Assembly (NCBI GenBank): GCA_965203315.1
Contig: OZ241857.1
Coordinates: 800,001 to 864,000 of the forward strand
Origin: Nitrosopumilus sp.
Lineage (GTDB): Archaea > Thermoproteota > Nitrososphaeria > Nitrososphaerales > Nitrosopumilaceae
Direction: 5' to 3'
Length of the DNA stretch: 64,000 bases
The position numbers were made by a program, and so were the translations under genes. Shown here one piece after another: positions 25,954 through 62,980 of this stretch (within the stretch, counting starts at the first letter, position 1; each line of letters starts with the position of its first letter). Under the pieces are notes generated by a model that saw only the letters and a list, made by a program, of their open reading frames with translations, was not told the DNA's origin and ran no database searches.

Positions 25954-25992
25954 AATACAAACTCTTGATGGTAATATCAATAACATGTATAA
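25954..25992 (+). repeat. S-layer cassette 1 left inverted-repeat site (TATA-less)
   Basis: AATACAAACTCTTGATGGTAATATCAATAACATGTATAA aligns without gaps to the reverse complement of 30995-31033. Confidence 0.85.
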
Positions 25993-26201
25993 TTGTACAG
26001 GTTGTACAAGTGCTTGTAAAGTTATCTGACATGACCTTTTACAGTCTATTAGTCTACGTACCTACTTCACATCTCTTGTATCAAGTATCTTGTGAATGAG
26101 TAATATTGTATAATGCAAGAGTCGAGGATGAAGGAGTAGAGATCATCGCATATTGTCATTGACACTGTATGTAGATATCACTATGCATAGTTGTATCATA
26201 T

Positions 26202-26219
26202 AAAAAAAGAAAAAGAAAA
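26202..26219 (-). terminator. oligo-T terminator of S-layer gene 1
   Basis: T-rich run on the - strand just after the stop codon. Confidence 0.6.
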
Positions 26220-26226
26220 GTTTGAA

Positions 26227-29200
26227 CTAGTTTACAGTTATTGTTGTTGTCTGTTGTGGAGATAGTGCAGTTGGTATCGTCAACGACTCCCATGCAAATA
26301 CGGTGATTGTGTATTCACCGGCTGCTGTTGGTATCCAAGACTGAGATGGACTAAACGACTGAGATGGTGTCAGTGAACCATCAATCCAAGACAGAGATAC
26401 AGTTACGCCATCGCTATCTTGAATTTGTACCAAGTATGCAAATGGCTGGTCTTTGTCTTGTGTGTTTGTCAAATCTGCAGTGATCTGGACTTGTTGATCT
26501 ATTGATACCGTACTGAGTGTTGTACCTGTAGAGTCTACTATTCTCAACGACTCGATCTTTACTCGTTCTAGAGGAGGTACTATTGTTCCTATTATGGTGG
26601 TTGCAGTGATGTCTTCAGAGTCGCCTGTATTGTATGGAGCAGGTAGAGTGTTGTCGCTGTACTTTGCAGTGACTGTGTCTCCTTCTTCTGTGGATAGTTT
26701 GTGACCACCTGATTGGACAGAGAGTCCAAAGAATACAGTACCTTCAAAGATACCACTTGCTGGCTGAGTCTCTGTTACTGTAAGGGTTATTCCACTAGGT
26801 GCACTAGAAGACCATACTTTGACCTCAAAGTTGTCTGCAGATTCTGGATTCAAGTTCATGTCGGGATCGATTACACGTAGTACGCCTGTAGCTGTAGCAG
26901 GATAACTTGCTTCTAGCCACTGAACTTCACCAATGTTCCAACGGATTAGAGCAGACTTGCGTACAGTCTCGTCGTCAGAGAACTCGAATGATACCTCGAG
27001 TCCGTCGTCGTTGTCTGTTGGTAATAGTCCATCGGTTGGTCCATTACATGTGTCACATGTACGACCTGTGACGTCTTTACCGTTTTCTCCTGTGGAATCA
27101 TCACCGTCTGCGTCGTACGAGAATCCTGTCAGTATTACTTCACCTGTAAAGATACCAGTGTTTGTACCTGTCTCTACGAGTTTGTAGTTTTTAATGTCGT
27201 CGGATCTTGTAGCAACACGCACTGGATATGGATCAGCACCAATCTCGTCTACTTGGTTTGTGTTTAGGTTGTGATCAGGAGCTGTTACAGTGATGAATAC
27301 CTTGTCGGTCCAACTGTATACACTTTGATCTAGTTCTATTGTAGCACCAAAGTTTGATGTGAATACCGTTCTGTCGATATCTTCTGTATTATCACCTACA
27401 TAGTCTGCACCTGATGGTCCATAGTCGGTGTATTCTAGCTTGATCTCTTCGCCTCGTTCTAGTCTGTCGTTGTCTATGGCCTTGGGAACAGATATGACCA
27501 CTTGGAATATGCCTGTGCTAGGACCAGTCTCTCGTAGAGAACCTGGTTCTGCATCGAATATACCTTCACTCAGATTCTTGGTACCTGCGTCCGAGTCCCA
27601 CTTTATTAGATCAAGTGTGTATGTTTCGCGTGTACCGCTGTCTAGATCAAGGTCTGGATCGATGAGTGTTACGATCATGTCCGAGCCTATCACATATACA
27701 GACTTGTCTGTCTGTAGAGCGCCGTTTCGTAGATCAAAGGTAGCAGAGTCTGTGACTGTACGTGGGTTACCAGAAGCATCTGTAGTGTCGTTGTACTGTA
27801 CTGTAATGATATCACCTTGTAGGATACAGTTACCGTCATTTGGACAGTCAGTACTGCTTGGTCCATCGATATAAGATAGATCAAAGCTTGCCTCAAAGAC
27901 TCCAGATTCAGGAGATGTCTCTACCAGAGCATAGTTTGTTGGATCTGGCTCCGGACATGCACCGCCTGTACTTCTAGCGTTATCGTACTTTAGTTGTGCC
28001 AAGAGATATGCTGTCTGTTTGTCGGTATCTGTCGTGGCTGCCTTGTATTCGGCCTCCTTTTTATCTAGATCACGTTTTAATGCACTGATTGCATCATTCG
28101 CGTCTGTTGTAGTACCACCTGCATAGGCTATTGCACACTCGTCACCACTGCGAGAGATCGTGACCATTACTGGACCATTTCCAGACATGCCTTCGATCTT
28201 GTCCTCACCTGTAGGATTCAAGTTGTAATCTGGGTCGTTTACTTGAACATAGACTTTGACTGTACCTAGTGGAAGAGGTTCAGGAGGATTCTTCATGTCC
28301 AAGAATCCTGAAGAGCCATCGTCTGTACCAGTACCATACGGAACTGGGTATACAGTTCTATCTAGAGATACAGAGCCTGTACTTGCACCAATCGATGCAG
28401 AGTCGCCAGCTGTAACTATCTGACCAGAGGCATCTCTAAAGTCTAGATATGTTACACCAATGTCTTTGCCGCTTACAGTTATTTTAGGTTCGTTCGTGTT
28501 TACACTACCATCATCATTAAAGTTGCATACCTCTTTTGGTACAGAAAATGAACCTGTAAAGACTCCTGTACTGGATCCGGTCTCTTGTAGAGTGAATCCT
28601 GTTGCACCGAGTCCGTTCTGAACACCATCAGACAGAGTACAACCAGATTGCCATCTCTTACCATCAAAGGTTACCTCTAGTAGCATTCCTAGTGATTTGC
28701 CACCTGGTAGTAGAGACGTGTACATGATATCATCTGTATTGGTTACGTTCATGCCTACTTGATCTCTATCTGTGTCGGTGTGGTTACTGTCCATCACTAC
28801 TGTATAGGTATCAGCTCGATCAGGATCTGTATTCAGATCAGAGTCCTCTAGAGTGATTACGACATTACTGCCTACACTGTATGTCTCTGCGTTCAGAGAT
28901 ACCACTCCACTGGTGGTTGCGATATCTTGTTGATCAGAGACTACGGCAGTATTGTCGTTTGCATTTTGATCGACATAGTTTACTCGCGCGTCAGAGCCGG
29001 TAAGATCCTCAAAGGCGATGAATTTGACTTCGTTGCCTATTGGAGTGATGTCTTTGTATGTATCTGCATTGTTTACGTTGAGTTGGTTTATCATTATGTA
29101 CTCTAGTGTTCCTGTAAAGGTGCTGGTGTTCTCACCGGTCTCTTCTACCTCGATTCGTATTATCTGATTGTTGACACGCTCAGAGGCTTGTGCTCCATCA

Positions 29201-31002
29201 TCTGTGAATCCAATGCTAAAGATATCTGCAACTATTAGATATGTCTTGTCGGTAAGATCGACTTGTTTTTTAATCTCTGACGCTATGGCAATTCTATATT
29301 CACCATCAAAGTCAGAGAGAGTCTTTGTGTCTGTATCGTCGTTAAACTTTATAAATTTACTTGCGAGATCAAAGACTCCTCTTCCATCACTAGCTAAATC
29401 TGCATGGTATCTTTGAGAGTTTATTTGAAATGGGTTATACGCCACAATCCAATAACTGCTACCACCAAGACTGCCAAAGTCATAGTTTAGTAGATTTACA
29501 CCTACAAAATCATTACCCATTTGCATGTTGGCTTTGTGTTCAGCAACTGTACCAAGAACAACCATGATGGTACCGTATCGACCATCATTTGGATTTCTTA
29601 AATCGTTACCGGTCCTGTTGATGTACATATTTGCCACGTAATGATCTGTGTCATATGTAAAGCCATACTGACTGGTTTGACCACAATGGATGGCCATGTA
29701 ATTTGTACCAAGAACGTTACTTGTTTTCGCATCAATCCTATTGTCAACTATCAGAGGGCATGGATTAATGCCGCCGGTAGTAGAACTATCACTACCTATA
29801 GAATATGGGCTCCATGGACGATCCTTTGTTAGTGTATACGGTTCGCCAATCATAAACGTTGGAATTCTTGCGTCTGAATTGGTTATCTTTTGATCGTCGT
29901 CTACTTCGCTGTTGAGATTTTGATCTGCATCAACGATAGTTAGATCAATGACTTCACCAGAGTTCCATGTACCATCTGCGATATCTAGGTTTACAGTAGC
30001 TGTGGTAAGTTGTGTGTTTACAGATACAGTCTCATCACTATACATGATTTGTGTGTTTTGGCCTCGAGGAGCCATATCTTCAATCATTATTGGAGACTTG
30101 TCATCGTTGGTGATAGTAAAGACGCCTGTGTTTGGACCTGTCTCTTCAAATATGTAATTTGTAGTACCAGATTCTAGTTGTAGTAGATCATTGGTATCCG
30201 GATTCATATTATCTATGCTAAAATTACACTTGTCATCTTTACAACCAAGATTATTGTTAGTAGGCATGATTGGAGTCTTTCCGCCCGTTCCAGAGCCAAC
30301 ACGATCATCATACATATAGGCTGGTGCTCCACCATCGACTGCATATCTCCAAATATCTTTAGTAGTTGGATCGATGTTTAGTATGTGATCGGTTATCTCC
30401 ACATGTACGTGAGAGTTTCTTGGGTACGATGTTCTATCTAGAGTAAGATCATTGTTTACAGAGTCGTCGTATGTGATCGTTATTGTCTGTGGCGCTCCAG
30501 CCTTGTGATATACAATATCAAAGGTATCATCTAGATCAAAGGTCTTTAGAACACTATTGTCTGCAGGAATAGTGATGCCTGCTTGTCTAATGAGATTAGG
30601 CATATTAGGCTGAGCAGATCCCCACAAAGCTTGAGCATCAGCAAAGGTAAGTCCATCATTACTGTCACCACCATCAGCAGCTACTCTAAAGTAACCATAC
30701 CAATTACCATCAGTGTGTCTGAACATCTTTAGTTCTTTGTCATCAACTCTTACACGAGGTTCAGCATCGTCTGCATCGCGGATCAACGGATCATTTACAA
30801 TTACTTGCACTATCTGTAGTCCACCAAAGGTGTTGTCGAACCTAGATCCATATCCATTTGGATCAGCAGCTGAGACGTATAGATTTGGTGTCGACTGGGC
30901 ATAGACTGGCTCCATGCTTGGTATAGCAAAGGTCAGTCCGCCTGCGACCATTATCGTCATTAGTATTAAACTAGTTGTTTTTCGTCCTATTTCGTTATTC
31001 AT
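26227..31002 (-). CDS. slaA: S-layer protein (Nitrosopumilus SlaA type), copy 1, promoter-linked
   Basis: MNNEIGRKTTSL signal; repeated ETGxxTGxFxG Ig-like domains; C-terminal QPFAYLVQIQD..SQSWIP..ALSP. Confidence 0.88.
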   Translation of the reverse strand: MNNEIGRKTTSLILMTIMVAGGLTFAIPSMEPVYAQSTPNLYVSAADPNGYGSRFDNTFGGLQIVQVIVNDPLIRDADDAEPRVRVDDKELKMFRHTDGNWYGYFRVAADGGDSNDGLTFADAQALWGSAQPNMPNLIRQAGITIPADNSVLKTFDLDDTFDIVYHKAGAPQTITITYDDSVNNDLTLDRTSYPRNSHVHVEITDHILNIDPTTKDIWRYAVDGGAPAYMYDDRVGSGTGGKTPIMPTNNNLGCKDDKCNFSIDNMNPDTNDLLQLESGTTNYIFEETGPNTGVFTITNDDKSPIMIEDMAPRGQNTQIMYSDETVSVNTQLTTATVNLDIADGTWNSGEVIDLTIVDADQNLNSEVDDDQKITNSDARIPTFMIGEPYTLTKDRPWSPYSIGSDSSTTGGINPCPLIVDNRIDAKTSNVLGTNYMAIHCGQTSQYGFTYDTDHYVANMYINRTGNDLRNPNDGRYGTIMVVLGTVAEHKANMQMGNDFVGVNLLNYDFGSLGGSSYWIVAYNPFQINSQRYHADLASDGRGVFDLASKFIKFNDDTDTKTLSDFDGEYRIAIASEIKKQVDLTDKTYLIVADIFSIGFTDDGAQASERVNNQIIRIEVEETGENTSTFTGTLEYIMINQLNVNNADTYKDITPIGNEVKFIAFEDLTGSDARVNYVDQNANDNTAVVSDQQDIATTSGVVSLNAETYSVGSNVVITLEDSDLNTDPDRADTYTVVMDSNHTDTDRDQVGMNVTNTDDIMYTSLLPGGKSLGMLLEVTFDGKRWQSGCTLSDGVQNGLGATGFTLQETGSSTGVFTGSFSVPKEVCNFNDDGSVNTNEPKITVSGKDIGVTYLDFRDASGQIVTAGDSASIGASTGSVSLDRTVYPVPYGTGTDDGSSGFLDMKNPPEPLPLGTVKVYVQVNDPDYNLNPTGEDKIEGMSGNGPVMVTISRSGDECAIAYAGGTTTDANDAISALKRDLDKKEAEYKAATTDTDKQTAYLLAQLKYDNARSTGGACPEPDPTNYALVETSPESGVFEASFDLSYIDGPSSTDCPNDGNCILQGDIITVQYNDTTDASGNPRTVTDSATFDLRNGALQTDKSVYVIGSDMIVTLIDPDLDLDSGTRETYTLDLIKWDSDAGTKNLSEGIFDAEPGSLRETGPSTGIFQVVISVPKAIDNDRLERGEEIKLEYTDYGPSGADYVGDNTEDIDRTVFTSNFGATIELDQSVYSWTDKVFITVTAPDHNLNTNQVDEIGADPYPVRVATRSDDIKNYKLVETGTNTGIFTGEVILTGFSYDADGDDSTGENGKDVTGRTCDTCNGPTDGLLPTDNDDGLEVSFEFSDDETVRKSALIRWNIGEVQWLEASYPATATGVLRVIDPDMNLNPESADNFEVKVWSSSAPSGITLTVTETQPASGIFEGTVFFGLSVQSGGHKLSTEEGDTVTAKYSDNTLPAPYNTGDSEDITATTIIGTIVPPLERVKIESLRIVDSTGTTLSTVSIDQQVQITADLTNTQDKDQPFAYLVQIQDSDGVTVSLSWIDGSLTPSQSFSPSQSWIPTAAGEYTITVFAWESLTIPTALSPQQTTTITVN

Positions 31003-31033
31003 GTTATTGATATTCCAATCAATAATTTGTATT
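30995..31033 (-). repeat. S-layer cassette 1 right inverted-repeat site overlapping the ATG
   Basis: contains the dyad TTATTGAT-N6-ATCAATAA at 31004-31025; inverted partner of 25954-25992. Confidence 0.85.
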
Positions 31034-31057
31034 TAAAGACTGTGAACGATTTGTTCA
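31026..31057 (-). promoter_or_regulatory. S-layer promoter: TATA box TTTAAATA (31030-31037) plus palindrome TGAAC-N5-GTTCA
   Basis: TATA ends 27 nt before the slaA ATG; 32 bp identical to 62948-62979. Confidence 0.8.
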
Positions 31058-31317
31058 TCTAGCCTCAACCGTAAGATAGAGACGCGGTATCGGTTCCAAG
31101 AGAATGACAACAGCTAACACAAATGAGCAAAACTAGTTATGTATCTACCACTTGTCAAAAGATAAACTCAAGATACGCATAATGATTATTGAGTAGTTAC
31201 AGTTTAGATATTCCAAGGACTTGCTAAAAACACATTTGCGTTAACTGACATGCAGTATTTGTGTCCAGATTGCAATGTATAGTAAACTACTTTATAGAGC
31301 ACTTGTAGACCTACCTC

Positions 31318-38350: not shown

Positions 38351-40114
38351 CTATGCCTCATCTTGAGGTGGTTGCTCAGGTGGGTCTGTCACAGGTGGAG
38401 TGAATTTGTACGAATCTGCATGTGTGCCTATCAGTCTAGCCTTATCATTTGTGCCATATAGTATAATATCATAGTCGCCGGCGGTTAGAGAGATCGTAAA
38501 TGTCGCGTTGTTGTCAGCGATGCTGGTACTGCCACGTGTTACAGTGTCGTCAGAGGCGGTTACAATCCAGTGGATCGTACTTGGTCGGAGTGCTTTGACT
38601 GTGTCGCTTCCAGAGGCAAAGTTCTTTTCCTCAAACGTGTATGAAAATTGTATGCCAGTTGAAGAATTTGTGGCAGATATGTTCAGGTCAAATATCTTTG
38701 CTATCTGTCTAGACTGCTCCTTTTTAATGACACCAAATTGGCACACTACATCATCACTCAACTGTACACTAGTACCTTGAGGAAGATGGACTGTACCGGG
38801 CGCATTACGAATTGTACCGGGCGCAAAGTTTGTACTGCTGTCAGCATCTGGCAGCTGTATGATCAAGCCGTTATCTAATTTTTTATAGAATATTGGAGCT
38901 GCATTATAGTATAGTGGAGAACCACTAGAGCTGGTACTGTATACTCGTTTGTTGTTTATGGTATTATCGGTTTCAAAAAAGAATGCGATCAAACGACTAG
39001 TATCACTGTCACCAAATAGATCGTTTGAGATGGTTGCGTTATAATATCTAGAACCGCCACGTTCTTCGATAAAGGTGGAAGGCAGAGAGATGGAAAAGAC
39101 ACCAGTATCCTTCTTTATAATCACAAAGACTTTACCATCGAACTCGGTTTGACCCGTTGAAAATTTCAAGACAACATCTTGATCGGGAGTCATCGATACT
39201 GTATAGGATATCTTGTGACGCTCTTGGCTGCACTTTGGCATTGAGAGGTATTGCGTCATAATATCTTTATTTTGTGCAGTAAGGGTCGTGCTGTTTATCA
39301 TGTTGGAGTAATCTTGATGAGTGTATGTAGATCCAAGTTGGCTAGATGTAGAACTTGTAGATTGTGTACCTGGATTGAGGTTTATGGGATTTGCCGGTGT
39401 GGTTACGGTGTCTGCTGCACCGTAAAAGCCAGTCAGTCGTTTTGTAATGATGACCATATCATCACCATGTTTGCCGTAACATACAGTATTGTTACCTTTG
39501 AGGACATTGTTTGTATCGATCAGGTCAGTTGTACATACGGGGATTGGTTGAGCATCTAGTATGTTGTCACGTGGGGAAAAGTAGAATGGTTTTTTGTCTG
39601 CCTTGTCATATATGGTAACTCGCATGTCCCTGGCGATTATCAACGGTTGGTTAGAGGCAGCTTCAGGATCTGGTGAGCAACTTCCACCGCCTGTAACTTG
39701 AAAGTCTAATCCGTATGCAGATAGTCTATTCTTTTTGTTAGGTTCTATATTGTTGGGTATGTCAAAACCTGGAACACGTTTTGCGTTGAGCCATTTAACA
39801 CGCTCAAAATTTGCATGGCATTGAGTGGTAGAAGAGCCCACAAGCGCAGGGTGCTCTAATGTCATAGCGTACGGTACAATATAGAGATCAGCTGTAGTTT
39901 TTTCTGAGACGTCAACTAGTCTAGAAGCGGCACTAGCATAGTGCATACGACCATATTCGTCTGGATAGAAATAAACTTGAGAAGACGATGTCTTGTTGGT
40001 TATAGGAGTGATGGTTAATAGATCACTAGTTGCAAATGCATCATCTAGCTCAACTATCAGAAACGGTATAACTGTTATTAAAACTAGAACAGGGATCAGA
40101 TGACGCTTGTTCAA
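38351..40114 (-). CDS. secreted/surface protein with one copy of a Cys-containing module, paralogue of 47538-51323
   Basis: signal peptide HLIPVLVL..LDDAF; MRVTIYDK..FYFSP..AQPIPVCTTD..CYG..IITKRLTGFYG module. Confidence 0.75.
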   Translation of the reverse strand: MNKRHLIPVLVLITVIPFLIVELDDAFATSDLLTITPITNKTSSSQVYFYPDEYGRMHYASAASRLVDVSEKTTADLYIVPYAMTLEHPALVGSSTTQCHANFERVKWLNAKRVPGFDIPNNIEPNKKNRLSAYGLDFQVTGGGSCSPDPEAASNQPLIIARDMRVTIYDKADKKPFYFSPRDNILDAQPIPVCTTDLIDTNNVLKGNNTVCYGKHGDDMVIITKRLTGFYGAADTVTTPANPINLNPGTQSTSSTSSQLGSTYTHQDYSNMINSTTLTAQNKDIMTQYLSMPKCSQERHKISYTVSMTPDQDVVLKFSTGQTEFDGKVFVIIKKDTGVFSISLPSTFIEERGGSRYYNATISNDLFGDSDTSRLIAFFFETDNTINNKRVYSTSSSGSPLYYNAAPIFYKKLDNGLIIQLPDADSSTNFAPGTIRNAPGTVHLPQGTSVQLSDDVVCQFGVIKKEQSRQIAKIFDLNISATNSSTGIQFSYTFEEKNFASGSDTVKALRPSTIHWIVTASDDTVTRGSTSIADNNATFTISLTAGDYDIILYGTNDKARLIGTHADSYKFTPPVTDPPEQPPQDEA

Positions 40115-40141
40115 TAATTCCCCCCCAAGGCGTTTATAAAA
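40115..40141 (-). promoter_or_regulatory. TATA box (TTTTATAAA) followed by G7 tract before the TTG start
   Basis: C7 at 40120-40126; TATA at 40133-40141; homologous to 51324-51356. Confidence 0.7.
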
Positions 40142-46137: not shown

Positions 46138-46486
46138 ATGCAAACAAACACATTACCCACCAAAAAAGTAAAAACAAGAACGATCTATGTTGGAATAGAT
46201 GTTCACAAGAACTCTCTGTATGTGACAGCAATTGATGAAGATGACAACATCTTACTAGACAAACGCATAATGACAAATCACTATAGTGTTGCAGAGACAT
46301 TCAAGCAATTCCCTGTAGACAAGACCCACTATGTAATGGAGTCATCGTCAGTCTGGTATGGATTGTATCGATATATGACAGACGAGTTGGGATTTGATCT
46401 AGTACTATCGAATCCGTACCAAACAAAAGCGATAGCAGCATCAAAGAAAAAGACAGACAAGGTAGATTCAAAGATACTAGCAGAAC
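46138..46486 (+). pseudogene. IS110-family transposase N-terminal fragment, truncated by a MITE
   Basis: YVGIDVHK, VMES, KTDKVDS (DEDD); frame runs into the MITE at 46487. Confidence 0.85.
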
Positions 46487-46605
46487 GGATCTTTTCGGTT
46501 TACGTGGGATGGTATTTTGCAAGACTGTTCTTGCTAAATTTTCCCCATAGAATCTCATAGTGCTGTCTCCATAACCATTCTATCCCACGTAAATCGAAAA
46601 GATCC
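46487..46605. mobile_element. MITE family A copy
   Basis: GGATCTTTTCGGTTTACGTGGGAT ... ATCCCACGTAAATCGAAAAGATCC. Confidence 0.88.
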
Positions 46606-50500: not shown

Positions 50501-51323
50501 TCAGTCCAGTATAATCTTTTTCATCGAATATTGGAGGTATTGATAATGTACCTGGCGGTGTACTAGCTGATCCATACTCTCCTATTTGTGTTGTTATTAT
50601 GACTAGATCATTCTTATACGTACCAGAACACATGCGGGTTTGTCCTTTGAGTTGCTTGGTACTGTTGTCAAAGTTTGCACTAGTACACTCTGGGATCAGT
50701 TGAGCCTTGGTGATATTTTCAAAGTGTGAAGAAAAGAATGCCTTTTTGCCAGCCTGACCATAAATGGTAACTCTCATAGATTTGTCTGTGAGTAGTGGTT
50801 CATTGTTAGAGTTTGCAGTGGTAAGAGCAGAGACGTCGCAGCCATGGGAATAGTCTTTAAAGTCTACACCTATTACTTTAACATCGCTTTCAGGTAAATT
50901 GGTATAGATGCTACCATTGACATTAGTAGGTAGTTTAGCATACTCGTGAATTGCATTAGATGGATTGGCACCAACGTTGTTTACTCCAAACTGGACTGTA
51001 CAGCCAATTGATGTCAATTTAGGGTTTGATAGTATCATTGTGCCCTTGTCTATGGTAATATCTCCTTCAGGTTGATAAACAGGGTCAATTCTATAGTGAT
51101 CATAACTAGTGACAGGAGTAATAGTTGCGCTATTGTTGCTATGTTTGACAAGTGGGATTCCGTTAGAATGAATATCAGTACGTAAACCTGTTGAGGGACT
51201 TAAACCAGGATTCGAATAGCTGTACGGAGGTATAACCGCACCAAACGCATCGTCTAGATCAACTAGTAAAAGTGGTACAACAGTTAACAAGACTAGAACA
51301 GGGATCAGACGATGCTTACTCAA
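47538..51323 (-). CDS. large secreted/surface protein with four tandem ~220-aa Cys-containing modules
   Basis: signal peptide; four MRxTIY..FSP..AQPIP.CT..C.G..IIT modules with Pro-rich linkers; distinct C-terminal domain. Confidence 0.8.
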   Translation of the reverse strand: MSKHRLIPVLVLLTVVPLLLVDLDDAFGAVIPPYSYSNPGLSPSTGLRTDIHSNGIPLVKHSNNSATITPVTSYDHYRIDPVYQPEGDITIDKGTMILSNPKLTSIGCTVQFGVNNVGANPSNAIHEYAKLPTNVNGSIYTNLPESDVKVIGVDFKDYSHGCDVSALTTANSNNEPLLTDKSMRVTIYGQAGKKAFFSSHFENITKAQLIPECTSANFDNSTKQLKGQTRMCSGTYKNDLVIITTQIGEYGSASTPPGTLSIPPIFDEKDYTGLSVKSTTEYDGTLFYEGDTIRMTDFTDEDTDATADLYLERDTTTLPLTLFAGTGEYSCDMDFERVKDFAKNMRPKFTVPDNITPTQKNELFAYGLGFDKKCKPNPGKVSNQTLITDTEMRVTIYDKVYKKPFYFSPPDSISTAQPIPVCTTDMIDTSNNNTLKDHNTICYGVHGDDIVIITKRLVGFYGVADTITTPTNPVDLNAAPPSTEPASTYAMALTILPLTEAEDDAYAQASFQTDEFNNGKIYYGGVDYRYSDHSTKPTADIALTQDTITLVHPLFNGTSTYNCFTNFEHVATLNIDKVPSFAIPNNIVPKTPLRSVHAYGLDFHSCTPDPEAVSSLPLITTKEMRITIYGKAEKTPYYFSPRDRIPQAQPIPVCTTDMIDTSNNNVLKGNNTICYGIHGDDMVIITKRLTGFYGAADTVNLPKSPVDLNAPTVPRDTNILTLAPPSDFPALNADGRTLAVTSDPTTTPGAYLAGNDRERYTGHQNTRIGDLHIQNDTKILPNEFPEESTCVAQFRIVNLLIADNNYGNLTLKVPDNLIADSGSFGPNFIKRDGCNIDLTKNSTKPLITDKEMRFTIYDKTDEHPYYFSPRENITKAQPIPACTTDMIDTTTNTLKGNNIMCYGKNGDDIVIITKRLTGFYGTAGTIIVPTHIIDFNKGDEPPPPPSDDDYFALVPTFGRSQFTGEQVVTCGYKMDDTCRDVTAYHVQYERDTIQTNTTHTFALKAYAPTLLRNVVLAFSVPNVGAPLSTAEAYISVNLGINYSEPSYHYIEGVTVHDPNNILDYDITGTIVSTASCSGGELQCTQVTIPDVLFREVMNHEPFAIQVTDTLGLNAINYMNEGVFVTGTSLNAPPTVHTGITLDTGDIRPTNLVLVRTDKVSDLWADAFGNTWSRNSFGNFVIVQYAPYAGTFPVCTDINDRICTPFKIKLDWHTQKMIELRDSLYDAYKTKAYAEIDNIFTYEFGDMDSRTRTLINLGWLTE

Positions 51324-51356
51324 TAATTATCCCCCCCCCCCCCGTGATTTATAAAA
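51324..51356 (-). promoter_or_regulatory. TATA box (TTTTATAAA) followed by G13 tract before the TTG start
   Basis: C13 at 51331-51343; TATA at 51348-51356. Confidence 0.75.
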
Positions 51357-54330: not shown

Positions 54331-54331
54331 A

Positions 54332-56908: not shown

Positions 56909-57406
56909 ATGCACCAAAGATGGTTTCAGCAAGTCGGAAGTGCAGTTCCTCGTGGCTTTTCTAGATACTATATACTAGAGTCACTAAAGGACGAGTCGCT
57001 ATCTGGTAAAGAGATCATAGATCATGCGACAAGACAGACTAGTGGTGTATGGAAACCATCGTCAGGACTGATCTATCCGTTGCTAGGCAGACTCTTGGAT
57101 GAGGGATTGATAGAAGAGTTAGATGGCAAGTATTCGCTTACAGCAAAGGGAAGAGAGATGTCCCAAGATGTTGAAAAGCTAGAAGAGATTGTAAGGCACC
57201 AGCTAGATGTCTTGTTTAGGTTGAGTAGTGTCGGAAGATTTGTCGCGACGGATATACTAGAGAGGATATCTGCAATGGGTGCAATTCTTGGTGCAAATAT
57301 AGAAAAGATGAGCGAGGCTGAAACTGAAAAGTATCGACAGTTTCTCAGATCAGAGCTTGAAAAGATCCAAGATAAACCACAAGGTAAAAAGATCAAACTA
57401 GACTAG
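56909..57406 (+). CDS. PadR-family transcriptional regulator
   Basis: WKPSSGLIYPLLGRL..Y.LT.KG. Confidence 0.85.
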   Translation: MHQRWFQQVGSAVPRGFSRYYILESLKDESLSGKEIIDHATRQTSGVWKPSSGLIYPLLGRLLDEGLIEELDGKYSLTAKGREMSQDVEKLEEIVRHQLDVLFRLSSVGRFVATDILERISAMGAILGANIEKMSEAETEKYRQFLRSELEKIQDKPQGKKIKLD

Positions 57407-57743
57407 ATTTCACGCAATAGACATGTGTGTTTTTCCAAGACATTACAATACTCTGTCATTGTTCAGTAAACGTCATGTAATCAAGAATTTGCTGTACGAC
57501 TAACCCGTTCGGTCGATTTTTACCTATAGAATCTTTGATCACAATAGCGATCAGGAATAACTGTTTGTATGTGCATTGCCCAAATAAAACCTTACCAAAA
57601 TATTGGGTTGATTTGCTCAAAAACACATTTGGATCAACTAATTTACATCTGCATTCTAGTAAATTTTTCAGGAATTTATGTACATTGTCAATACATGTCA
57701 AGCTAAAAACTGTAAGAGAAAAGAGACATGAGCGTCTACTCAC

Positions 57744-57782
57744 AATACAAGCTTTAGATAGAAACATCAATAACATGAATAA
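57744..57782 (+). repeat. S-layer cassette 2 left inverted-repeat site (TATA-less), overlapping the ATG
   Basis: AGAAACATCAATAACATGAATAA (57760-57782) is the exact reverse complement of 62917-62939. Confidence 0.9.
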
Positions 57783-60700
57783 CGAAATAGGACGAAAAAC
57801 AACTAGTTTAATACTAATGACGATAATGGTCGCAGGCGGACTGACCTTTGCTATACCAAGCATGGAGCCAGTCTATGCCCAGTCGACACCAAATCTATAC
57901 GTCTCAGCTGCTGATCCAAATGGCTATGGCGCTAGATTCGACAACACCTTTGGTGGACTACAGATAGTAGAAGTTATCGTAACTGATCCACTATTGACTG
58001 ATTCAACTGATGCTGCGCCTCGTGTCACAGTAGATGACGTGACACTCACCATGTTACAATCTGGTGATGGTTCTTGGTATGGCTACTTTGCAGACAAAGG
58101 ACAAGGTACAGAAGACAACACTGCCGCACAACAGCCATTTAACGGAAACATAGATTGGGATAACTTGAGCGTTAATCAACCAAACAACAAAGGCAAATTT
58201 GACAATCGGGACAAAATCGAAGAATCTCCAAAAGTTTGGAAGGCACGCAATGCTACCGAACCACTCATAGTAGATACTAACACCGGTATCGCATACTTTG
58301 ATTTTAATGATAAGGATGAGGTCAAAGTAGTCTATCAAAAGGCTGGAAATCCTCAAACAGTAACACTCACATATGACAAGTCTAAAAACAACTCTATCGA
58401 GCTTGATCGAGACTTTTACACACAAGGAGCAAATGTATACATCACAATCACTGATCATGTGCTAAACATAGATCCTACATCCAAAGACAAATGGTTCTTC
58501 CACATGTATGATCTCAACGATACGGAACATGATGGAGAATATAGTACTCTGATTCCTAGTAACTTTGATGAGACAATGACTCTAAGTCGTGAATCAACTA
58601 GTGAGATATTGAAATCTAATGGTGATCCACAACCATATTGGTTCTATTACCACTACTCATCACTTGGTTGTGATGATAACTGTCTACTCAATATACCAAT
58701 GGGCGATACGGAAAACATAATCAACTATATGCCACAACCAGATTCTGATGCAATAGATGCAAAAGTTATTGGATTCATCGAGACGGGACCAAACACCGGC
58801 ATCTTTGAAATACGAGAACAAGATAGCAATAATGACGGTGTTAATGACTTTGGAGCAGTAAAGATCAAATCAGGCGCACCACGAGGAACAAACACACAGA
58901 TCACATACGATGACGACAATGTAGCCGTAAACCTACGACTAACTACTGCTACTGTAGATCTAGATGTATCCGACGGTACATGGAACTCTGGCGAAAAGAT
59001 AGACCTAACCATAGTCGATGCAGATCAAAACAAAGACAGTGATGCAGAAGACGATCAAACAATAGACAATCTAGACGCAAGGATTCCAACAATGATCATA
59101 GGTGATCCATACACACTAGCCGATGACCACAAGATGTCTGGTAATGTGAAAAATCCTAATTACCTCTTGCTAGGACCCGGCTTAGATCCAACGACATTTG
59201 CCAGTGCTAGCCAGATAGCTACCGGGCCAATGATGATGGATGATACACATCAACTAGGCACAATCAAAGTCAGCGGTTCCAATGACTTGACAACCAATAC
59301 TAATGGTAAAACCGGATATATGGTTATGGTTCTTGGATTCCTTGATGAATACCAAGCAGCAATGAGTCTACAAGATGACTTTGTAGGTGTAAATCTACTA
59401 AACTATGACTTTAGTAGTCTCGGTGCTACCAAGTACTGGCTCACGATGTATTCTTTCCCTTCAACGTCTCCTAAATATAATGTGGAGTTGGATAGTGATG
59501 GAGTAGGTGTATTCAATCTTGCAACAGATATGTCTCTCGCTACGAACTCTTCGATAAAGGCACAAGCAAGCGATAAAGGTCTAGCTAATCTAGGTACATA
59601 TAGAATTGCGGTCACTGCAGAATTTACAAGTACATTTGATGTAAGCAAGACATATCCAGTAGCCGCAGACGTCTTTAGCATTGGATTCACGGGTGACGGC
59701 GCACAGGCCTCTGAACGTATCAACAATCAGATAATACGAATCGAAGTAGAAGAGACCGGTGAGAACACCAGCACCTTTACAGGAACACTAGAGTACATAA
59801 TGATAAACCAACTCAACGTAAACAATCCAGATACATACAAAGACATCACTCCAATAGGCAACGAAGTCAAATTCATAGCCTTTGAGGATATGACAGGCTC
59901 TGACGCGCGAGTAAACTATGCCGACATTAACTCAAATGGCAACAATGCTACAGTCTCCGACCAACAAGATATCGCAACCTCTAGTGGTGTGGTATCTCTA
60001 AACGCAGAGACATACAGTGTAGGTAGTAATGTCGTAATCACACTAGAAGACTCTGATCTAAATACAGATCCTGATCGAGCTGATACATATACTGTCGTAA
60101 CACGAAACATGACTGGTGGAACCACGAACATTGGTAAGGACATGGACCAAGTGGGCATCGATGTCATGTCCAAGTATGAGACTCTACTACCAGGTAAGAA
60201 ATCACTAGGAATGCTACTCGAAGTAACCTTTGATGGTAAGAGATGGCAATCTGGTTGTACTCTGTCTGATGGAGTTCAGAACGGACTCGGCGAAACAGGA
60301 TTCACTCTACAAGAGACCGGATCCAGTACAGGAGTCTTTACAGGTTCATTTTCTGTACCAAAAGAGGTATGCAACTTTAATGATGATGGTAGTGTAAACA
60401 CGAACGAATCTAAAATAACTGTAAGCGGCAAAGACATTGGTGTAACATATCTAGACTTTAGAGATGCATCTGGTCAGATAGTTACAGCGGGCGACTCTGC
60501 ATCGATTGGTGCAAGTACAGGCTCTGTATCTCTAGATAGAACTGTATATCCAGTTCCGTATGGTCAGGGTACAACAACTGGTTCAAGAGCCCTAGACATG
60601 GCCGGAGCAAATCTTGCAGGCGGTACAGTCAAAGTCTATGTTCAAGTAAACGACCCAGATTACAACTTGAATCCTACAGGTGAGGACAAGATCGAAGACG

Positions 60701-62658
60701 AGGATGGAAATGGTCCAGTAAAGGTCACGATCTCTCGCAGTGGTGACGAGTGTCTAATAGGTAATGCAGGCGGTACTAGATCAGTTGCAACCGACGAGAT
60801 CAGTAGATTGTTAGAAGATCGAAATACAAAGAAAGCTAGCTATGATGCAGACAAGACAAACACCGACAAACAGACAGCATATCTCTTGGCACAACTAAAG
60901 TATGATGATGCTAGAAGTACAGGTGGTGCATGTCCGGTTCCAGAACCGTTTGGTGCTCTAACAGAGACATCTCCCGAATCTGGAGTGTTCGAAGTAAGCT
61001 TTGATCTATCTCACAGCATAGGACCAAGCAGTACCGACTGTCCAAATGATGATAACTGTATCCTACAAGGTGATATCCTCACCGTACAGTACAACGACAC
61101 TACAGACGCTTCTGGTAATCAACGCACAGTCACAGACTCTGCTACCTTTGATCTACGAAACGGTGCTCTACAGACAGACAAGTCTGTATATGTTATAGGC
61201 TCGGACATGATCGTAACACTCATCGATCCAGACCTTGATCTAGACAGCGGTACACGTGAAACATATACACTTGATCTGATAAAGTGGGACTCGGACGCAG
61301 GTACCAAAAACCTGAGTGAAGGTATATTCGATGCAGAACCAGGTTCTCTACGAGAGACTGGTCCTAGCACAGGCATATTCCAAGTGGTCATATCTGTTCC
61401 AAAAGCTATAGACAGCGACAGACTAGAGCGTGGTGAAGAGATCAAGCTAGAATACACAGACTATGGACCATCAGGTGCAGACTATGTAGGTGATAATACA
61501 GAAGATATCGACAGAACGGTATTCACATCAAACTTTGGTGCTACAATAGAACTAGATCAAAGCGTATACAGTTGGACCGACAAGGTATTCATTACTGTAA
61601 CAGCTCCTGATCACAACCTAAACACAAACCAAGTAGACGAGATTGGTGCTGATCCATATCCGGTACGTGTTGCTACAAGATCCGACGACATTAAAAACTA
61701 CAAACTCGTAGAGACAGGTACAAACACTGGTATCTTTACAGGTGAAGTAATACTGACAGGATTCTCGTACGACGCAGACGGTGATGATTCCACAGGAGAA
61801 AACGGTAAAGACGTCACAGGTCGTACATGTGATAGCTGTAAAGGACCAACCGATGGACTATTACCAACAGACAACGACGACGGACTCGAGGTATCATTCG
61901 AGTTCTCTGACGACGAGACTGTTCGCAAGTCTGCTCTAATCCGTTGGAACATTGGTGAGGTTCAGTGGCTAGAAGCAAGTTATCCTGCTACAGCTACAGG
62001 CGTACTACGTGTAATCGATCCCGACATGAACTTGAATCCAGAATCTGCAGACAATTTTGAGGTCAAAGTATGGTCTTCTAGTGCACCTAGTGGAATAACC
62101 CTTACAGTAACAGAGACTCAGCCAGCAAGTGGTATCTTTGAAGGTACTGTATTCTTTGGACTCTCTGTCCAATCAGGTGGTCACAAACTATCCACAGAAG
62201 AAGGAGACACAGTCACTGCAAAGTACAGCGACAACACTCTACCTGCTCCGTACAATACAGGCGACTCTGAAGACATCACTGCAACCACCATAATAGGAAC
62301 AATAGTACCTCCTCTAGAACGAGTAAAGATCGAGTCATTGAGAATAGTAGACTCTACAGGTACAACACTCAGTACAGTATCAATAGATCAACAAGTCCAG
62401 ATCACTGCAGATTTGACAAACACACAAGACAAAGACCAGCCATTTGCATACTTGGTACAAATACAAGATAGCGATGGCGTAACGGTATCTCTGTCTTGGA
62501 TTGATGGTTCACTAACACCATCTCAGTCGTTTAGTCCATCTCAGTCGTGGATACCAACTGCATCCGGTGAATACACAATTACCGTATTTGCATGGGAGTC
62601 GTTGACTATACCAACTGCACTATCTCCACAACAGACAACAACAATAACTGTAAACTAG
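57775..62658 (+). CDS. slaA: S-layer protein (SlaA type), copy 2, no promoter upstream in this orientation
   Basis: true start MNNEIGRK at 57775; first 149 bp identical and 3' ~1.5 kb near-identical to copy 1. Confidence 0.88.
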   Translation: MNNEIGRKTTSLILMTIMVAGGLTFAIPSMEPVYAQSTPNLYVSAADPNGYGARFDNTFGGLQIVEVIVTDPLLTDSTDAAPRVTVDDVTLTMLQSGDGSWYGYFADKGQGTEDNTAAQQPFNGNIDWDNLSVNQPNNKGKFDNRDKIEESPKVWKARNATEPLIVDTNTGIAYFDFNDKDEVKVVYQKAGNPQTVTLTYDKSKNNSIELDRDFYTQGANVYITITDHVLNIDPTSKDKWFFHMYDLNDTEHDGEYSTLIPSNFDETMTLSRESTSEILKSNGDPQPYWFYYHYSSLGCDDNCLLNIPMGDTENIINYMPQPDSDAIDAKVIGFIETGPNTGIFEIREQDSNNDGVNDFGAVKIKSGAPRGTNTQITYDDDNVAVNLRLTTATVDLDVSDGTWNSGEKIDLTIVDADQNKDSDAEDDQTIDNLDARIPTMIIGDPYTLADDHKMSGNVKNPNYLLLGPGLDPTTFASASQIATGPMMMDDTHQLGTIKVSGSNDLTTNTNGKTGYMVMVLGFLDEYQAAMSLQDDFVGVNLLNYDFSSLGATKYWLTMYSFPSTSPKYNVELDSDGVGVFNLATDMSLATNSSIKAQASDKGLANLGTYRIAVTAEFTSTFDVSKTYPVAADVFSIGFTGDGAQASERINNQIIRIEVEETGENTSTFTGTLEYIMINQLNVNNPDTYKDITPIGNEVKFIAFEDMTGSDARVNYADINSNGNNATVSDQQDIATSSGVVSLNAETYSVGSNVVITLEDSDLNTDPDRADTYTVVTRNMTGGTTNIGKDMDQVGIDVMSKYETLLPGKKSLGMLLEVTFDGKRWQSGCTLSDGVQNGLGETGFTLQETGSSTGVFTGSFSVPKEVCNFNDDGSVNTNESKITVSGKDIGVTYLDFRDASGQIVTAGDSASIGASTGSVSLDRTVYPVPYGQGTTTGSRALDMAGANLAGGTVKVYVQVNDPDYNLNPTGEDKIEDEDGNGPVKVTISRSGDECLIGNAGGTRSVATDEISRLLEDRNTKKASYDADKTNTDKQTAYLLAQLKYDDARSTGGACPVPEPFGALTETSPESGVFEVSFDLSHSIGPSSTDCPNDDNCILQGDILTVQYNDTTDASGNQRTVTDSATFDLRNGALQTDKSVYVIGSDMIVTLIDPDLDLDSGTRETYTLDLIKWDSDAGTKNLSEGIFDAEPGSLRETGPSTGIFQVVISVPKAIDSDRLERGEEIKLEYTDYGPSGADYVGDNTEDIDRTVFTSNFGATIELDQSVYSWTDKVFITVTAPDHNLNTNQVDEIGADPYPVRVATRSDDIKNYKLVETGTNTGIFTGEVILTGFSYDADGDDSTGENGKDVTGRTCDSCKGPTDGLLPTDNDDGLEVSFEFSDDETVRKSALIRWNIGEVQWLEASYPATATGVLRVIDPDMNLNPESADNFEVKVWSSSAPSGITLTVTETQPASGIFEGTVFFGLSVQSGGHKLSTEEGDTVTAKYSDNTLPAPYNTGDSEDITATTIIGTIVPPLERVKIESLRIVDSTGTTLSTVSIDQQVQITADLTNTQDKDQPFAYLVQIQDSDGVTVSLSWIDGSLTPSQSFSPSQSWIPTASGEYTITVFAWESLTIPTALSPQQTTTITVN

Positions 62659-62664
62659 TTCAAA

Positions 62665-62686
62665 CTTTCTCTTTTTTTCTTTTTTT
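62665..62686 (+). terminator. oligo-T terminator of S-layer gene 2
   Basis: T-rich run after the stop codon. Confidence 0.6.
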
Positions 62687-62916
62687 ATATGATATAGCAA
62701 TGCATAGTAATAGCTGCATATGGTAAAGATAACAGTAATCGTATGTGATAGCACTACATACATCACGTTATAATACAATGATCTCTACTCTTACATTATA
62801 CAATATTGCTCATTCACAAGATACTTGATACGAGAGATCTGAATTTGGTGCGTAGGACGATAGACTACAAAACATCATGCTAAACTTTACACAGGCACAT
62901 TGCACAGCCTGTACAA

Positions 62917-62955
62917 TTATTCATGTTATTGATGTTTCTTTCAAAAGTTTGTATT
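62917..62955 (-). repeat. S-layer cassette 2 right inverted-repeat site
   Basis: 23-bp perfect inverted partner of 57760-57782; looser similarity extends to AATACAA. Confidence 0.9.
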
Positions 62956-62980
62956 TAAAGACTGTGAACGATTTGTTCAC
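62948..62980 (-). promoter_or_regulatory. second S-layer promoter copy, pointing into the 3' flank of slaA copy 2
   Basis: 32 bp identical to 31026-31057; TATA 62952-62959; palindrome GTGAAC-N5-GTTCAC 62964-62980. Confidence 0.8.

What the first reader, a model, noticed from the sequence alone, without database searches (positions are those of the whole stretch)
25954..62980. Two invertible S-layer gene cassettes, one ON and one OFF: candidate DNA-inversion phase variation in an archaeon
Seen: each slaA gene plus ~250 bp of homologous 3' flank is bracketed by inverted repeats containing the start-codon context. Cassette 2 has 23 bp of perfect repeat, AGAAACATCAATAACATGAATAA (57760-57782 vs 62917-62939). 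Cassette 1 has AATATCAATAACATG(A/T)ATAA (25973-25992 vs 30995-31014). All four sites align without gaps as AATACAA-N24-ATG. Both right-hand sites continue into an identical 32-bp TATA+palindrome promoter facing left. Both left-hand sites lack the TATA (CCAAAATA, TCACAATA). The outer frames therefore share orientation while the inner cassettes are opposite: slaA1 starts at its promoter, whereas slaA2 ends at its promoter and starts at the dead site. Flipping 57.8-62.9 kb would put slaA2 27 nt behind the TATA, exactly as for slaA1. Established: inversion-controlled S-layer switching occurs in bacteria (Campylobacter fetus sap locus, Lactobacillus slpA/slpB). Inference: this is an archaeal equivalent in which the whole gene flips against a fixed promoter. 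I know of no description in Thaumarchaeota.
Basis: partly seen in the sequence, partly recalled or inferred. Interest (0 to 1): 0.95.

Follow-up and report, generated by a model that had tools for sequence, protein, structure and literature searches.

The report
Flippable S-layer gene cassettes in an archaeon
An ammonia-oxidising archaeon keeps about ten versions of its surface-coat gene, most of them in 5-kb cassettes that can face toward or away from a fixed promoter, which looks like a DNA-flipping switch for changing the cell surface, but no reads yet show it switching.

Summary
Both "slaA" genes are homologues of the Nitrosopumilus maritimus S-layer protein (PDB 8c8k, E=0). Each gene plus 242-266 bp of 3' flank lies between inverted copies of TTGAT-N6-ATCAATAAC-ATG.

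An operator-like palindrome plus TATA box sits outside one end only. Cassette 1 reads ON and cassette 2 reads OFF.

Genome-wide I found 17 such sites. Eight carry a TATA box and nine do not. They form 7 intact units (3 ON, 4 OFF) plus one unit split by a 40-kb inversion.

150 other species of the genus have at most 5 loose matches each, against 21 here, and the five intact relative loci I read have an ordinary terminator instead of a second site.

Four results point to site-specific recombination:
- The 6-nt spacer is unit-specific and identical in both arms in 5 of 7 units (2 of 5040 permutations do as well).
- One ectopic junction crosses over inside the spacer.
- A tyrosine-recombinase gene sits exactly in this site at the ancestral S-layer locus.
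- OFF copies are intact, with dN/dS of 0.22-0.46.

No read-level evidence of switching could be obtained, because only contigs were served. No recombinase is adjacent. Cassette 1 is a chimeric unit with mismatched spacers.

Verdict: a likely archaeal S-layer inversion switch, a new variant of a known kind, not yet shown to be active. Other first-stage notes of this scan on this genome had flagged the same sites, and none had been followed up.

The parts
25954..25992 (+). Site A, the TATA-less ('dead') end of cassette 1. Outer arm TTGAT 25965-25969, spacer GGTAAT 25970-25975, inner arm ATCAATAAC 25976-25984, ATG 25985. It reads into the mini-ORF.
   Evidence: The best TATA-like octamer has 3 mismatches (CCAAAATA at -35). 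Junction confirmed by a contig of run X1.
25985..26029 (+). 14-codon Cys-rich mini-ORF (MYNCTGCTSACKVI*) that starts at the ATG of site A. It is the decoy end of cassette 1.
   Evidence: Read. The same class of mini-ORF is at the non-gene end of all 7 units: 14 codons in 6 and 16 in one. It is 36 codons at the split-unit site C1:1804984.
26030..26226 (-). Conserved 3' flank of slaA1. A T-rich terminator follows the stop, then a block that is nearly invariant among the 7 units aligned.
   Evidence: Alignment of 7 flanks. No Rfam family matched, and the fold is no better than shuffles (z 0.68).
26227..31002 (-). slaA1, an NmSLP-type S-layer protein gene of 1591 aa, facing its promoter (ON).
30995..31058 (-). 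Site B plus promoter. ATG 31002-31000, inner arm 31011-31003, spacer TGGAAT 31017-31012, outer arm TTGAT 31022-31018, TATA TTTAAATA 31038-31031, palindrome 31058-31042.
   Evidence: TATA has 0 mismatches at -35.
57741..57782 (+). Site C, the TATA-less end of cassette 2. Outer arm TAGAT 57755-57759, spacer AGAAAC 57760-57765, inner arm 57766-57774, ATG 57775. It reads into slaA2.
   Evidence: The best TATA-like octamer has 3 mismatches.
57775..62658 (+). slaA2, an NmSLP-type S-layer protein gene of 1627 aa. It is intact but faces away from its unit's promoter (OFF).
62659..62879 (+). Conserved 3' flank of slaA2 (terminator plus conserved block).
62880..62924 (-). Mini-ORF 2 (MNNCTGCAMCLCKV*), currently the reading frame behind the promoter of cassette 2.
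62917..62980 (-). Site D plus promoter. ATG 62924-62922, inner arm 62933-62925, spacer AGAAAC (GTTTCT on +) 62939-62934, outer arm TTGAA 62944-62940, TATA 62960-62953, palindrome 62980-62964.

Best explanation
Each S-layer gene sits in a self-contained invertible unit of about 5.2 kb. Outside one end is a fixed promoter: the palindrome GTGAACAAATCGTTCAC plus TATA at -35. This is the same promoter module that drives the single S-layer gene of related species. Outside the other end the TATA is destroyed. Both ends carry, between the TATA position and the ATG, a recombination site with the anatomy of a tyrosine-recombinase core: arm TTGAT, a 6-nt spacer, arm ATCAATAAC, then ATG. Recombination between the two inverted sites flips the whole gene with its 3' flank. 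The promoter then reads either the S-layer gene (ON) or a 14-codon decoy ORF and antisense sequence (OFF). The spacer differs between units but matches within a unit, which would restrict flipping to cognate pairs. The paralogues keep the signal peptide and the membrane-proximal C-terminal third nearly identical. They differ strongly in the outer N-terminal domains. Switching units would therefore change the exposed face of the S-layer, plausibly to escape viruses. Shown: the architecture, its recurrence in both states, the spacer pattern, one crossover inside a spacer, and intact, selected OFF genes. Inferred: that inversion is ongoing, that a recombinase (candidate Int1, C1:1467141-1468769) catalyses it, and the biological purpose.
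For: (1) Genome-wide there are 17 sites: 8 with palindrome+TATA and 9 without. They form 7 physically paired units with exactly one TATA end each (3 ON, 4 OFF), plus one pair with the same spacer separated by a 40-kb inversion. (2) All 8 TATA-type sites have a 0-1 mismatch TATA at -35. All 9 dead sites have at least 2 mismatches and 8 of 9 have at least 3. Genome-wide, TATA-like octamers peak at -32..-27 before the ATG in 954 crude genes. (3) Both flank families and both promoter-module families contain ON and OFF members, so at least 2 separate events are needed. OFF-type junctions can only arise by exchange inside the ~35-nt site, not in the kilobases of gene homology. (4) Spacers are identical in both arms in 5 of 7 units although they differ between units; 2 of 5040 permutations do as well. 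Dead sites keep ATCAATAACATG in 9 of 9 and TTGAT in 8 of 9, while their TATA and palindrome have decayed. (5) An ectopic junction lies upstream of a cofH-like gene (C5:289125). The sequence switches from a D-type promoter site (14 of 14 nt) to the native cofH upstream of relatives inside the 6-nt spacer, next to a lone ATCAA arm. (6) Ancestral locus: in 4 of 5 relatives the gene upstream of the S-layer promoter is the homologue of C1:1464718-1465560. In this genome it is followed by an orphan copy of the promoter whose site breaks right after ATCAA and runs into a tyrosine recombinase gene (PF00589, E 5.7e-9, above cut-off) with HerA- and NurA-like genes. None of 7 homologous integrase loci in relatives has this promoter. 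(7) Sites B (window) and Y (C5:17726) share the spacer TGGAAT. They flank genes that are direct neighbours in relatives G009 and G010, which shows that a unit was inserted whole with matching arms. (8) The OFF genes in units are all intact (1613-1675 aa), with dN/dS of 0.22-0.46 between OFF-OFF pairs. (9) Mean pairwise identity is 15-35% in most windows of aa ~100-600, interrupted by conserved islands of 59-74%, and 92-100% over aa 1100-1591. Passages of PMC11153153 place the N-terminal domains 1, 2 and 4 outermost.
Against: There is no direct observation of two orientations. No recombinase gene lies beside any unit, and no serine recombinase was found in the genome. Int1 belongs to a family found in 24 of 80 other genomes of the genus that lack these units, so it is not specific to them. 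The dyad arms are short: 36 perfect TTGAT-N6-ATCAA dyads occur genome-wide and only 15 are at S-layer sites. Cassette 2's outer arms are imperfect (TAGAT, TTGAA). Cassette 1 and unit C5_50k have mismatched spacers. Homologous recombination clearly acts on this family: there is a 40-kb inversion between 98.8%-identical copies, and the units sit at synteny breakpoints. It could therefore also have produced the flips. Three units read ON at once. The assembly is unsettled around some units: C1 and C5 share an identical 17,739-bp prefix that ends inside a spacer, and C4 is an orphan cassette interior.
Confidence: 0.55

Rival explanations
1. Fossil rearrangements. The S-layer gene family expanded, and general homologous recombination (RadA) between short inverted promoter copies and between paralogues occasionally flipped or shuffled units during evolution. 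The ON/OFF pattern is a frozen by-product. OFF copies serve at most as donors for gene conversion. There is no programmed reversible switch and no dedicated recombinase.
For: Homologous recombination is visibly active. There is a 40-kb inversion between copies 98.8% identical. The genes are mosaics with a C-terminal third at dS ~0.09 against ~1.4 in the N-terminal part. Units sit at synteny breakpoints and unit 1 is chimeric. No recombinase is adjacent.
Against: Spacers match within units but differ between them (2 of 5040 permutations). The core is strictly conserved at dead sites beside decayed TATA and palindrome. The cofH junction has a crossover in the spacer and almost no flanking homology. 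Exactly one TATA is present per unit in 7 of 7. OFF genes are intact and under purifying selection.
Confidence: 0.27
2. No inversion logic at all. The repeat is simply a duplicated promoter driving a small convergent gene or antisense RNA (the mini-ORF transcript) that regulates the S-layer gene. The 'dead' sites are weak but working promoters, so all copies are expressed at different levels.
For: The mini-ORF end always begins with a start codon in promoter context. A frame-preserving 3-nt length difference separates the two mini-ORF families. Dead sites keep the spacer and the start region.
Against: The strong promoter is at the gene end in 3 units and at the mini-ORF end in 4, with the same cassette content. 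A fixed regulatory design does not predict this. Dead sites have no TATA-like octamer with fewer than 2 mismatches anywhere within 80 nt. The five intact relative loci read have no such convergent element.
Confidence: 0.06
3. Assembly artefact. The orientations of 5-kb repeats were misplaced by the assembler, so ON/OFF calls are unreliable.
For: The C1/C5 duplicated prefix ends in a site. C4 is an unplaced cassette interior.
Against: OFF-type and ON-type junction sequences are distinct real sequences. Junction A is crossed by a contig from an independent public run with 0 differences. Loose ends matching the C, Y and D outer sequences appear in 1 to 3 runs. Six units lie inside one 1.94-Mb contig.
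Confidence: 0.04

Closest known systems
   Same: The recombination site lies between the promoter and the start of the coding sequence of surface-protein genes. Inversion decides which gene is joined to a promoter. The recombinase is of the tyrosine type. The family consists of paralogues with conserved ends and variable exposed parts.
   Different: Those loci have one expression site shared by clustered silent genes, with the recombinase encoded in the locus. Here every unit has its own promoter, its own decoy end and its own spacer. The units are dispersed over the chromosome, no recombinase is adjacent, and the organism is an archaeon.
Campylobacter fetus sap and Lactobacillus acidophilus slpA/slpB S-layer switching
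   Same: An S-layer protein is exchanged through DNA inversion that brings a silent paralogue behind a promoter. The paralogues share a conserved 5' region.
   Different: In those systems two or more full genes compete for a single promoter. In C. fetus, a promoter-bearing segment inverts with RecA dependence. Here a single gene flips against a fixed promoter, and the repeats are ~35-nt sites with arm-spacer-arm anatomy.
Classical invertons (fimS/FimBE, hin, Bacteroides PS promoters, C. difficile cwpV/RecV). Survey passages read in bioRxiv 10.1101/2023.03.11.532203; listing seen for PMC3080850.
   Same: Short inverted repeats bracket an invertible segment that sets ON/OFF of a surface structure.
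   Different: In invertons the small promoter (or terminator) segment flips and the gene stays. Here the promoter stays and a 5-kb gene flips. That preprint reports only 12 putative archaeal invertons, from Euryarchaeota and Crenarchaeota datasets, and calls archaeal invertons minimally investigated.
N. maritimus S-layer protein NmSLP (Nmar_1547, PDB 8c8k) and its paralogue Nmar_1201
   Same: The protein family is the same (E=0). The promoter palindrome, TATA and start context match those of the relatives read.
   Different: N. maritimus is described with two copies at 91% identity and no switch (passages of PMC11153153). This genome has about 12 copies. Eight lie in repeat-bracketed units, with N-terminal regions at 15-35% mean identity in most windows.

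Membership tests
NmSLP-type thaumarchaeal S-layer protein | Full-length sequence homology to the solved N. maritimus S-layer protein, including the N-terminal signal region | tested here: met
   phmmer vs PDB: 8c8k_A, E=0, 1197 bits, three stretches covering aa 1-1590
NmSLP-type thaumarchaeal S-layer protein | Forms the hexagonal lattice on cells | not testable with these tools
   Needs proteomics or cryo-ET of this organism.
Programmed DNA-inversion phase variation | Invertible segment bracketed by inverted repeats | tested here: met
   39-40-nt repeats in the window; 7 paired units genome-wide
Programmed DNA-inversion phase variation | Orientation changes the link between promoter and gene | tested here: met
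   TATA+palindrome at one end only in 7 of 7 units. 3 face the gene and 4 face the decoy. Promoter activity itself is inferred from sequence.
Programmed DNA-inversion phase variation | Both orientations coexist in a clonal population | not testable with these tools
   Only assembled contigs of public runs were served, and they cannot show minor orientations.
Programmed DNA-inversion phase variation | Dedicated site-specific recombinase | tested here: inconclusive
   None is adjacent and there is no PF00239 hit. Two PF00589 genes were found. One (Int1) is inserted in the same site at the ancestral S-layer promoter.
Tyrosine-recombinase core site (arm-spacer-arm) | Two inverted arms around a 6-8 bp spacer | tested here: met
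   TTGAT-N6-ATCAA at 15 of 17 sites, extending to 8 nt (TTATTGAT/ATCAATAA) at 3 sites. The arms are short, and 21 other perfect dyads exist in the genome.
Tyrosine-recombinase core site (arm-spacer-arm) | Partner sites share the spacer | tested here: met
   5 of 7 units identical; 2 of 5040 permutations do as well. The two exceptions include window cassette 1.
Tyrosine-recombinase core site (arm-spacer-arm) | Strand exchange inside the spacer | tested here: inconclusive
   One natural junction (cofH) switches parent inside the spacer. The C1/C5 contigs diverge inside a spacer. No biochemical test was possible.
Single-expression-site gene-shuffling systems (vpma/vsa/sap type) | One promoter shared by several silent genes in one locus | tested here: not met
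   8 units each have their own promoter module and are dispersed over two contigs.

The most novel reading that the evidence does not exclude
A mobile-element tyrosine integrase that once targeted the S-layer core promoter has been co-opted. It now runs a set of dispersed whole-gene inversion switches, each addressed by its own 6-nt spacer. With these, a marine-type ammonia-oxidising archaeon turns individual S-layer variants on and off and so changes the outer face of its only cell-wall layer. This would be the first programmed phase or antigenic variation system in Thaumarchaeota, and the first inversion-controlled S-layer switch in Archaea.
Probability: 0.35. Interest if true: 0.92.

Novelty: new variant of a known kind. 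Interest (0 to 1): 0.8.

Why it matters
Ammonia-oxidising archaea are among the most abundant microbes on Earth. Their S-layer is both the ammonium-gathering surface and the first thing a virus touches. Phase variation is a textbook bacterial strategy, but it is barely documented in archaea. My searches found no paper combining Nitrosopumilus, S-layer and phase variation. The one long-read survey I read reports 12 putative archaeal invertons, none from this phylum. If these units flip in living populations, it would show that archaea use bet-hedging surface variation. It would give a genetic handle on virus-host conflict in nitrifiers. It would also offer a compact, spacer-addressed recombinase/site system of possible use as a genetic tool in archaea.

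Tried and rejected
Reads. The look-up of sequencing runs listed 13 runs and no RNA holder. All were kept as Logan contigs. Read laying on window:24000-33000 with X1, X2, X3 and X5 gave no joints. The contigs break at the paralogue repeats, so this says nothing about minor orientations. One loose end is unresolved: place 30995, 8 letters before it, in X1 and X2. It could be a mini-ORF start joined to a site not in the assembly, or just site D laid partially.

Two scans of JGI metagenome contigs found 0 matches for the mini-ORF-type junction. They found 4 matches for the dyad+start pattern, none in an S-layer context. Records of this genome or near relatives may be left out of that collection.

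Relatives. Among 150 other species genomes of the genus, none approaches this genome's 21 sites. The per-genome maximum is 5 with 2 mismatches allowed, control counts reach 2, and 40 matches were not listed. Orientation therefore could not be compared across genomes. Of 8 relative loci fetched, 5 held full-length S-layer genes, 1 held a 198-aa frame, and 2 were chance matches that I dropped.

Recombinase search. PF00239 gave no match. Int1 has no PDB or PHROG match. No inverted partner site or tRNA lies within 20 kb around Int1. Int2's upstream region has no site.

Flank RNA. No Rfam family matched beyond one sub-threshold snoRNA hit outside the flank. The fold z-score is 0.68.

Transposon reading. 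I rejected the idea that the repeats are terminal inverted repeats of a mobile unit. The conserved promoter module lies outside the repeat on one side only, and the orientation relative to it varies. How the units spread to unique loci remains unexplained.

Ancestral gene. I looked for a remnant of the ancestral S-layer gene next to its former downstream neighbour (C1:36440-37417) and found none.

Supplements. Supplementary files of papers were not opened. Data S2 of the PhaVa preprint (the archaeal invertons) could bear on the novelty claim.
Full report
**What is in the window.** Both large genes are S-layer genes of the Nitrosopumilus type. slaA1 (31002..26227, minus strand, 1591 aa) matches the solved N. 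maritimus S-layer protein 8c8k at E=0 and 1197 bits over aa 1-1590. It has no Pfam family above cut-off. slaA2 (57775..62658, 1627 aa) is 72% identical to slaA1. The genome has amoA. The neighbours are housekeeping genes: ureD/ureG, AhpC, acetyl/propionyl-CoA carboxylase and sdhABCD. A PadR-family gene lies at 56909-57406. No recombinase is adjacent.

At the non-gene end of each cassette, the ATG of the repeat opens a 14-codon Cys-rich mini-ORF.

**The pattern is genome-wide.** The window is C1:800001-864000 of a 2.47-Mb, 7-contig assembly. Scanning it found 17 distinct sites of this type, plus two poly-G promoter variants.

Each site reads: outer sequence, TTGAT, a 6-nt spacer, ATCAATAAC, ATG. 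Eight sites carry the palindrome and a TATA box with 0-1 mismatch at -35. Nine carry neither; their best TATA-like octamer has at least 2 mismatches, and at least 3 in 8 of 9. In 954 crude genes, TATA-like octamers peak at -32..-27 before the ATG. The S-layer TATA is therefore placed to start transcription at or a few bases before the ATG.

The sites pair into 7 units of about 5.2 kb, each with exactly one TATA end:

| Unit | State |
|---|---|
| C1:825985-831002 (cassette 1) | ON |
| C5:36372-41539 | ON |
| C5:50345-55452 | ON |
| C1:12608-17726 | OFF |
| C1:205787-211044 | OFF |
| C1:792798-797926 | OFF |
| C1:857775-862924 (cassette 2) | OFF |

An eighth pair (C1:1804984 T>decoy and C1:1845297 d>gene) shares the spacer GATAAT. 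It lies in direct orientation 40 kb apart. This fits a large inversion between two S-layer copies that are 98.8% identical.

**Relatives lack the architecture.** Across 150 other species genomes of the same genus, the start motif occurs at most 5 times per genome with 2 mismatches allowed, against 21 in this genome (one search gave 23 against at most 2 with a shorter pattern in 40 genomes). In the five relatives whose intact S-layer locus I read, the same palindrome, TATA and start context precede the gene. The 3' flank is an ordinary T-rich terminator without a second site. The left arm TTGAT is absent from their promoters, so the dyad is an innovation of this genome. The promoter module occurs once in 3 of 5 relatives and twice in the other 2; the second copy has 2 mismatches. 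It occurs 12 times here.

**Evidence that exchange happens at the site.** OFF-type junctions (TATA joined to decoy, dead end joined to gene) can only be made by exchange within the ~35 nt between the TATA and the first codons. Crossovers in the kilobases of gene homology keep the promoter attached to the gene. Both 3'-flank families and both promoter-module families include ON and OFF units, so at least two such events occurred.

The 6-nt spacer differs between units but is identical in both arms in 5 of 7 units (GTGAAT, GGAAAT, GAGAAT, AGAAAC, GAGATT). Only 2 of 5040 re-pairings do as well. Dead sites keep ATCAATAACATG in 9 of 9 and TTGAT in 8 of 9, although the TATA and palindrome beside them have decayed. 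Something therefore maintains the site itself.

**Two orphan promoter copies are informative.** Upstream of a cofH-like radical-SAM gene (C5:289125), the sequence matches a D-type promoter site through ...CAAACTTTTGAAAG. It then continues TTCTATCAAGAATTAAATAG. Three of 5 relatives have TTTCTATCAAGG in their native cofH upstream and a fourth has the variant TTTCTACCAAGAA. The parental switch therefore lies inside the spacer, next to a lone ATCAA arm, with almost no flanking homology. That is what a site-specific recombinase acting on a secondary site leaves behind. It is not what homologous recombination leaves.

The second orphan lies at the ancestral S-layer locus. In 4 of 5 relatives the gene just upstream of the S-layer promoter is the homologue of C1:1464718-1465560. 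In this genome that gene is followed by a NERD-domain gene and the promoter module. After ATCAA comes a 542-aa tyrosine recombinase gene, Int1 (PF00589, 36.4 bits against a cut-off of 27.1), and then HerA-like and NurA-like genes. The HxxR and a C-terminal Tyr motif are visible by eye in the Int1/Int2 alignment; I did not check them against a reference alignment.

A recombinase-bearing element thus sits in precisely this site. That makes Int1 the leading candidate enzyme. It is only a candidate. Its family occurs in 24 of 80 other genomes of the genus. None of 7 homologous loci has the S-layer promoter. I could not test activity.

**Units move and exchange.** AhpC, next to site B, and the gene next to dead site Y (C5:17726) are direct neighbours in relatives G009 and G010. 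B and Y share the spacer TGGAAT. So B and Y were the two ends of one unit inserted between those genes. Today's cassette 1 (B with A, spacers TGGAAT and GGTAAT) is a chimera produced by exchange between units.

If the enzyme needs matching spacers, cassette 1 is locked ON. Mismatched spacers occur in 2 of 3 ON units and 0 of 4 OFF units. The numbers are too small to test.

Contigs C1 and C5 are identical for 17,739 bp and diverge inside a spacer. C4 is an unplaced cassette interior interrupted by an insertion sequence. Either the population is heterogeneous at these sites or the assembler could not resolve them. I cannot tell which.

**The genes behave like a variation repertoire.** All eight genes in units are intact. 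The five OFF genes measure 1613-1675 aa. Copies outside units are broken: stops after 134 and 137 aa in the two poly-G promoter copies, an insertion sequence in C4, and a 12-base C/G tract (C12 on the + strand) at the gene's 5' end, C1:743037.

The table summarises divergence along the 8-paralogue alignment.

| Region (slaA1 aa) | Mean pairwise identity | Median dN/dS | Median dS |
|---|---|---|---|
| 1-50 / 1-60 | 96% | 0.09 | 0.22 |
| ~100-600 | 15-35% in most windows; conserved islands of 59-74% | 0.38 | ~1.4 |
| 601-1100 | 54-92% | 0.32 | 0.41 |
| 1100-1591 | 92-100% | 0.08 | ~0.09 |

Between OFF-OFF pairs, dN/dS is 0.22-0.46. This indicates old variable modules joined to a homogenised anchor.

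Passages of the N. maritimus structure paper place domains 1, 2 and 4 outermost and the ninth domain at the membrane-proximal base. They also suggest that the glycan coat may shield against phages (PMC11153153). Switching units would thus change the exposed face.

**What is missing.** I obtained no read-level or RNA evidence; Tried and rejected lists what I tried. The literature searches named in Why it matters found no description of such a system. I did not open supplementary files.

**Judgement.** That recombination at these sites has flipped S-layer genes in this lineage is very likely (about 0.9). That it is a site-specific, currently operating phase-variation system is the best single explanation (0.55). 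The main rival is fossil rearrangement by homologous recombination (0.27). It is a new variant of inversion-based surface variation in a domain and phylum where none is described.

Noticed in passing
window 25908-25919 (C12), 51331-51343 (C13), 40120-40126 (C7); genome-wide list: About 37 G or C homopolymer tracts of 9-17 nt occur in a 38.6% GC genome. Most sit between a TATA-like box (TTTTATAAG...) and the start of genes for secreted or surface proteins. In the window these are the 1261-aa gene 47538..51323 and the 587-aa gene 38351..40114. They are candidate slipped-strand contingency loci. Contigs of runs X2 and X3 stop just before the 25908 tract.
   Followed up: partly
G000 C1:1810515(-) and C6:25110(+): Two further S-layer copies have a different promoter form. 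A G9 or G11 tract lies between the TATA and the ATG, and the reading frames are broken after 137 and 134 aa.
   Followed up: partly
G000 C1:1804984-1850400: A 40-kb segment lies between two inverted S-layer copies that are 98.8% identical over 3955 nt. Two sites with the same spacer (GATAAT) now sit in direct orientation at its ends. This is best read as a large inversion by homologous recombination.
   Followed up: partly
G000 C1:1-17739 and C5:1-17739; contig C4: Two contigs share an identical 17.7-kb prefix that ends inside a site spacer. A 6.7-kb contig is only the interior of another S-layer cassette carrying an insertion sequence. This could be structural heterogeneity or an unresolved repeat.
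   Followed up: partly
window 8852-10570; many places in G000: At least seven families of 1.5-1.7-kb insertion sequences occur at 5-12 copies each, 97-100% identical. One copy is in the window (ORF 9009..10481).
   Followed up: no
window 38041-38085, 42760-42876, 45002-45046, 46487-46605: A 45-71-nt repeat (GGATCTTTTCGATTTACGTG...) occurs in direct and inverted copies around an IS110-type transposase fragment (46138..46560). It looks like a miniature derivative of an insertion sequence.
   Followed up: no
window 38351-40114 and 47538-51323: Two surface-protein genes without a Pfam family share ~680-700-nt internal repeats (families D1-D3) and homologous promoter and signal regions (D7, D11).
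   Followed up: no
G000 C5:287416-289165: A 1.75-kb insert lies between cofH and its conserved neighbour. It ends in the orphan S-layer promoter and holds a 145-aa ORF that looks to me like a winged-helix DNA-binding protein; it has no PHROG match and was not scanned against Pfam. Its left junction has no site.
   Followed up: partly
window 56909-57406: A PadR-family regulator gene lies 370 nt upstream of dead site C. Whether it binds the 6-5-6 palindrome of the S-layer promoter was not examined.
   Followed up: no
window 30995 (loose ends of X1 and X2): A contig begins 8 letters before 30995 with the start of a mini-ORF joined to the core. It may be a junction absent from the assembly, or site D laid in part. 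This is unresolved.
   Followed up: no
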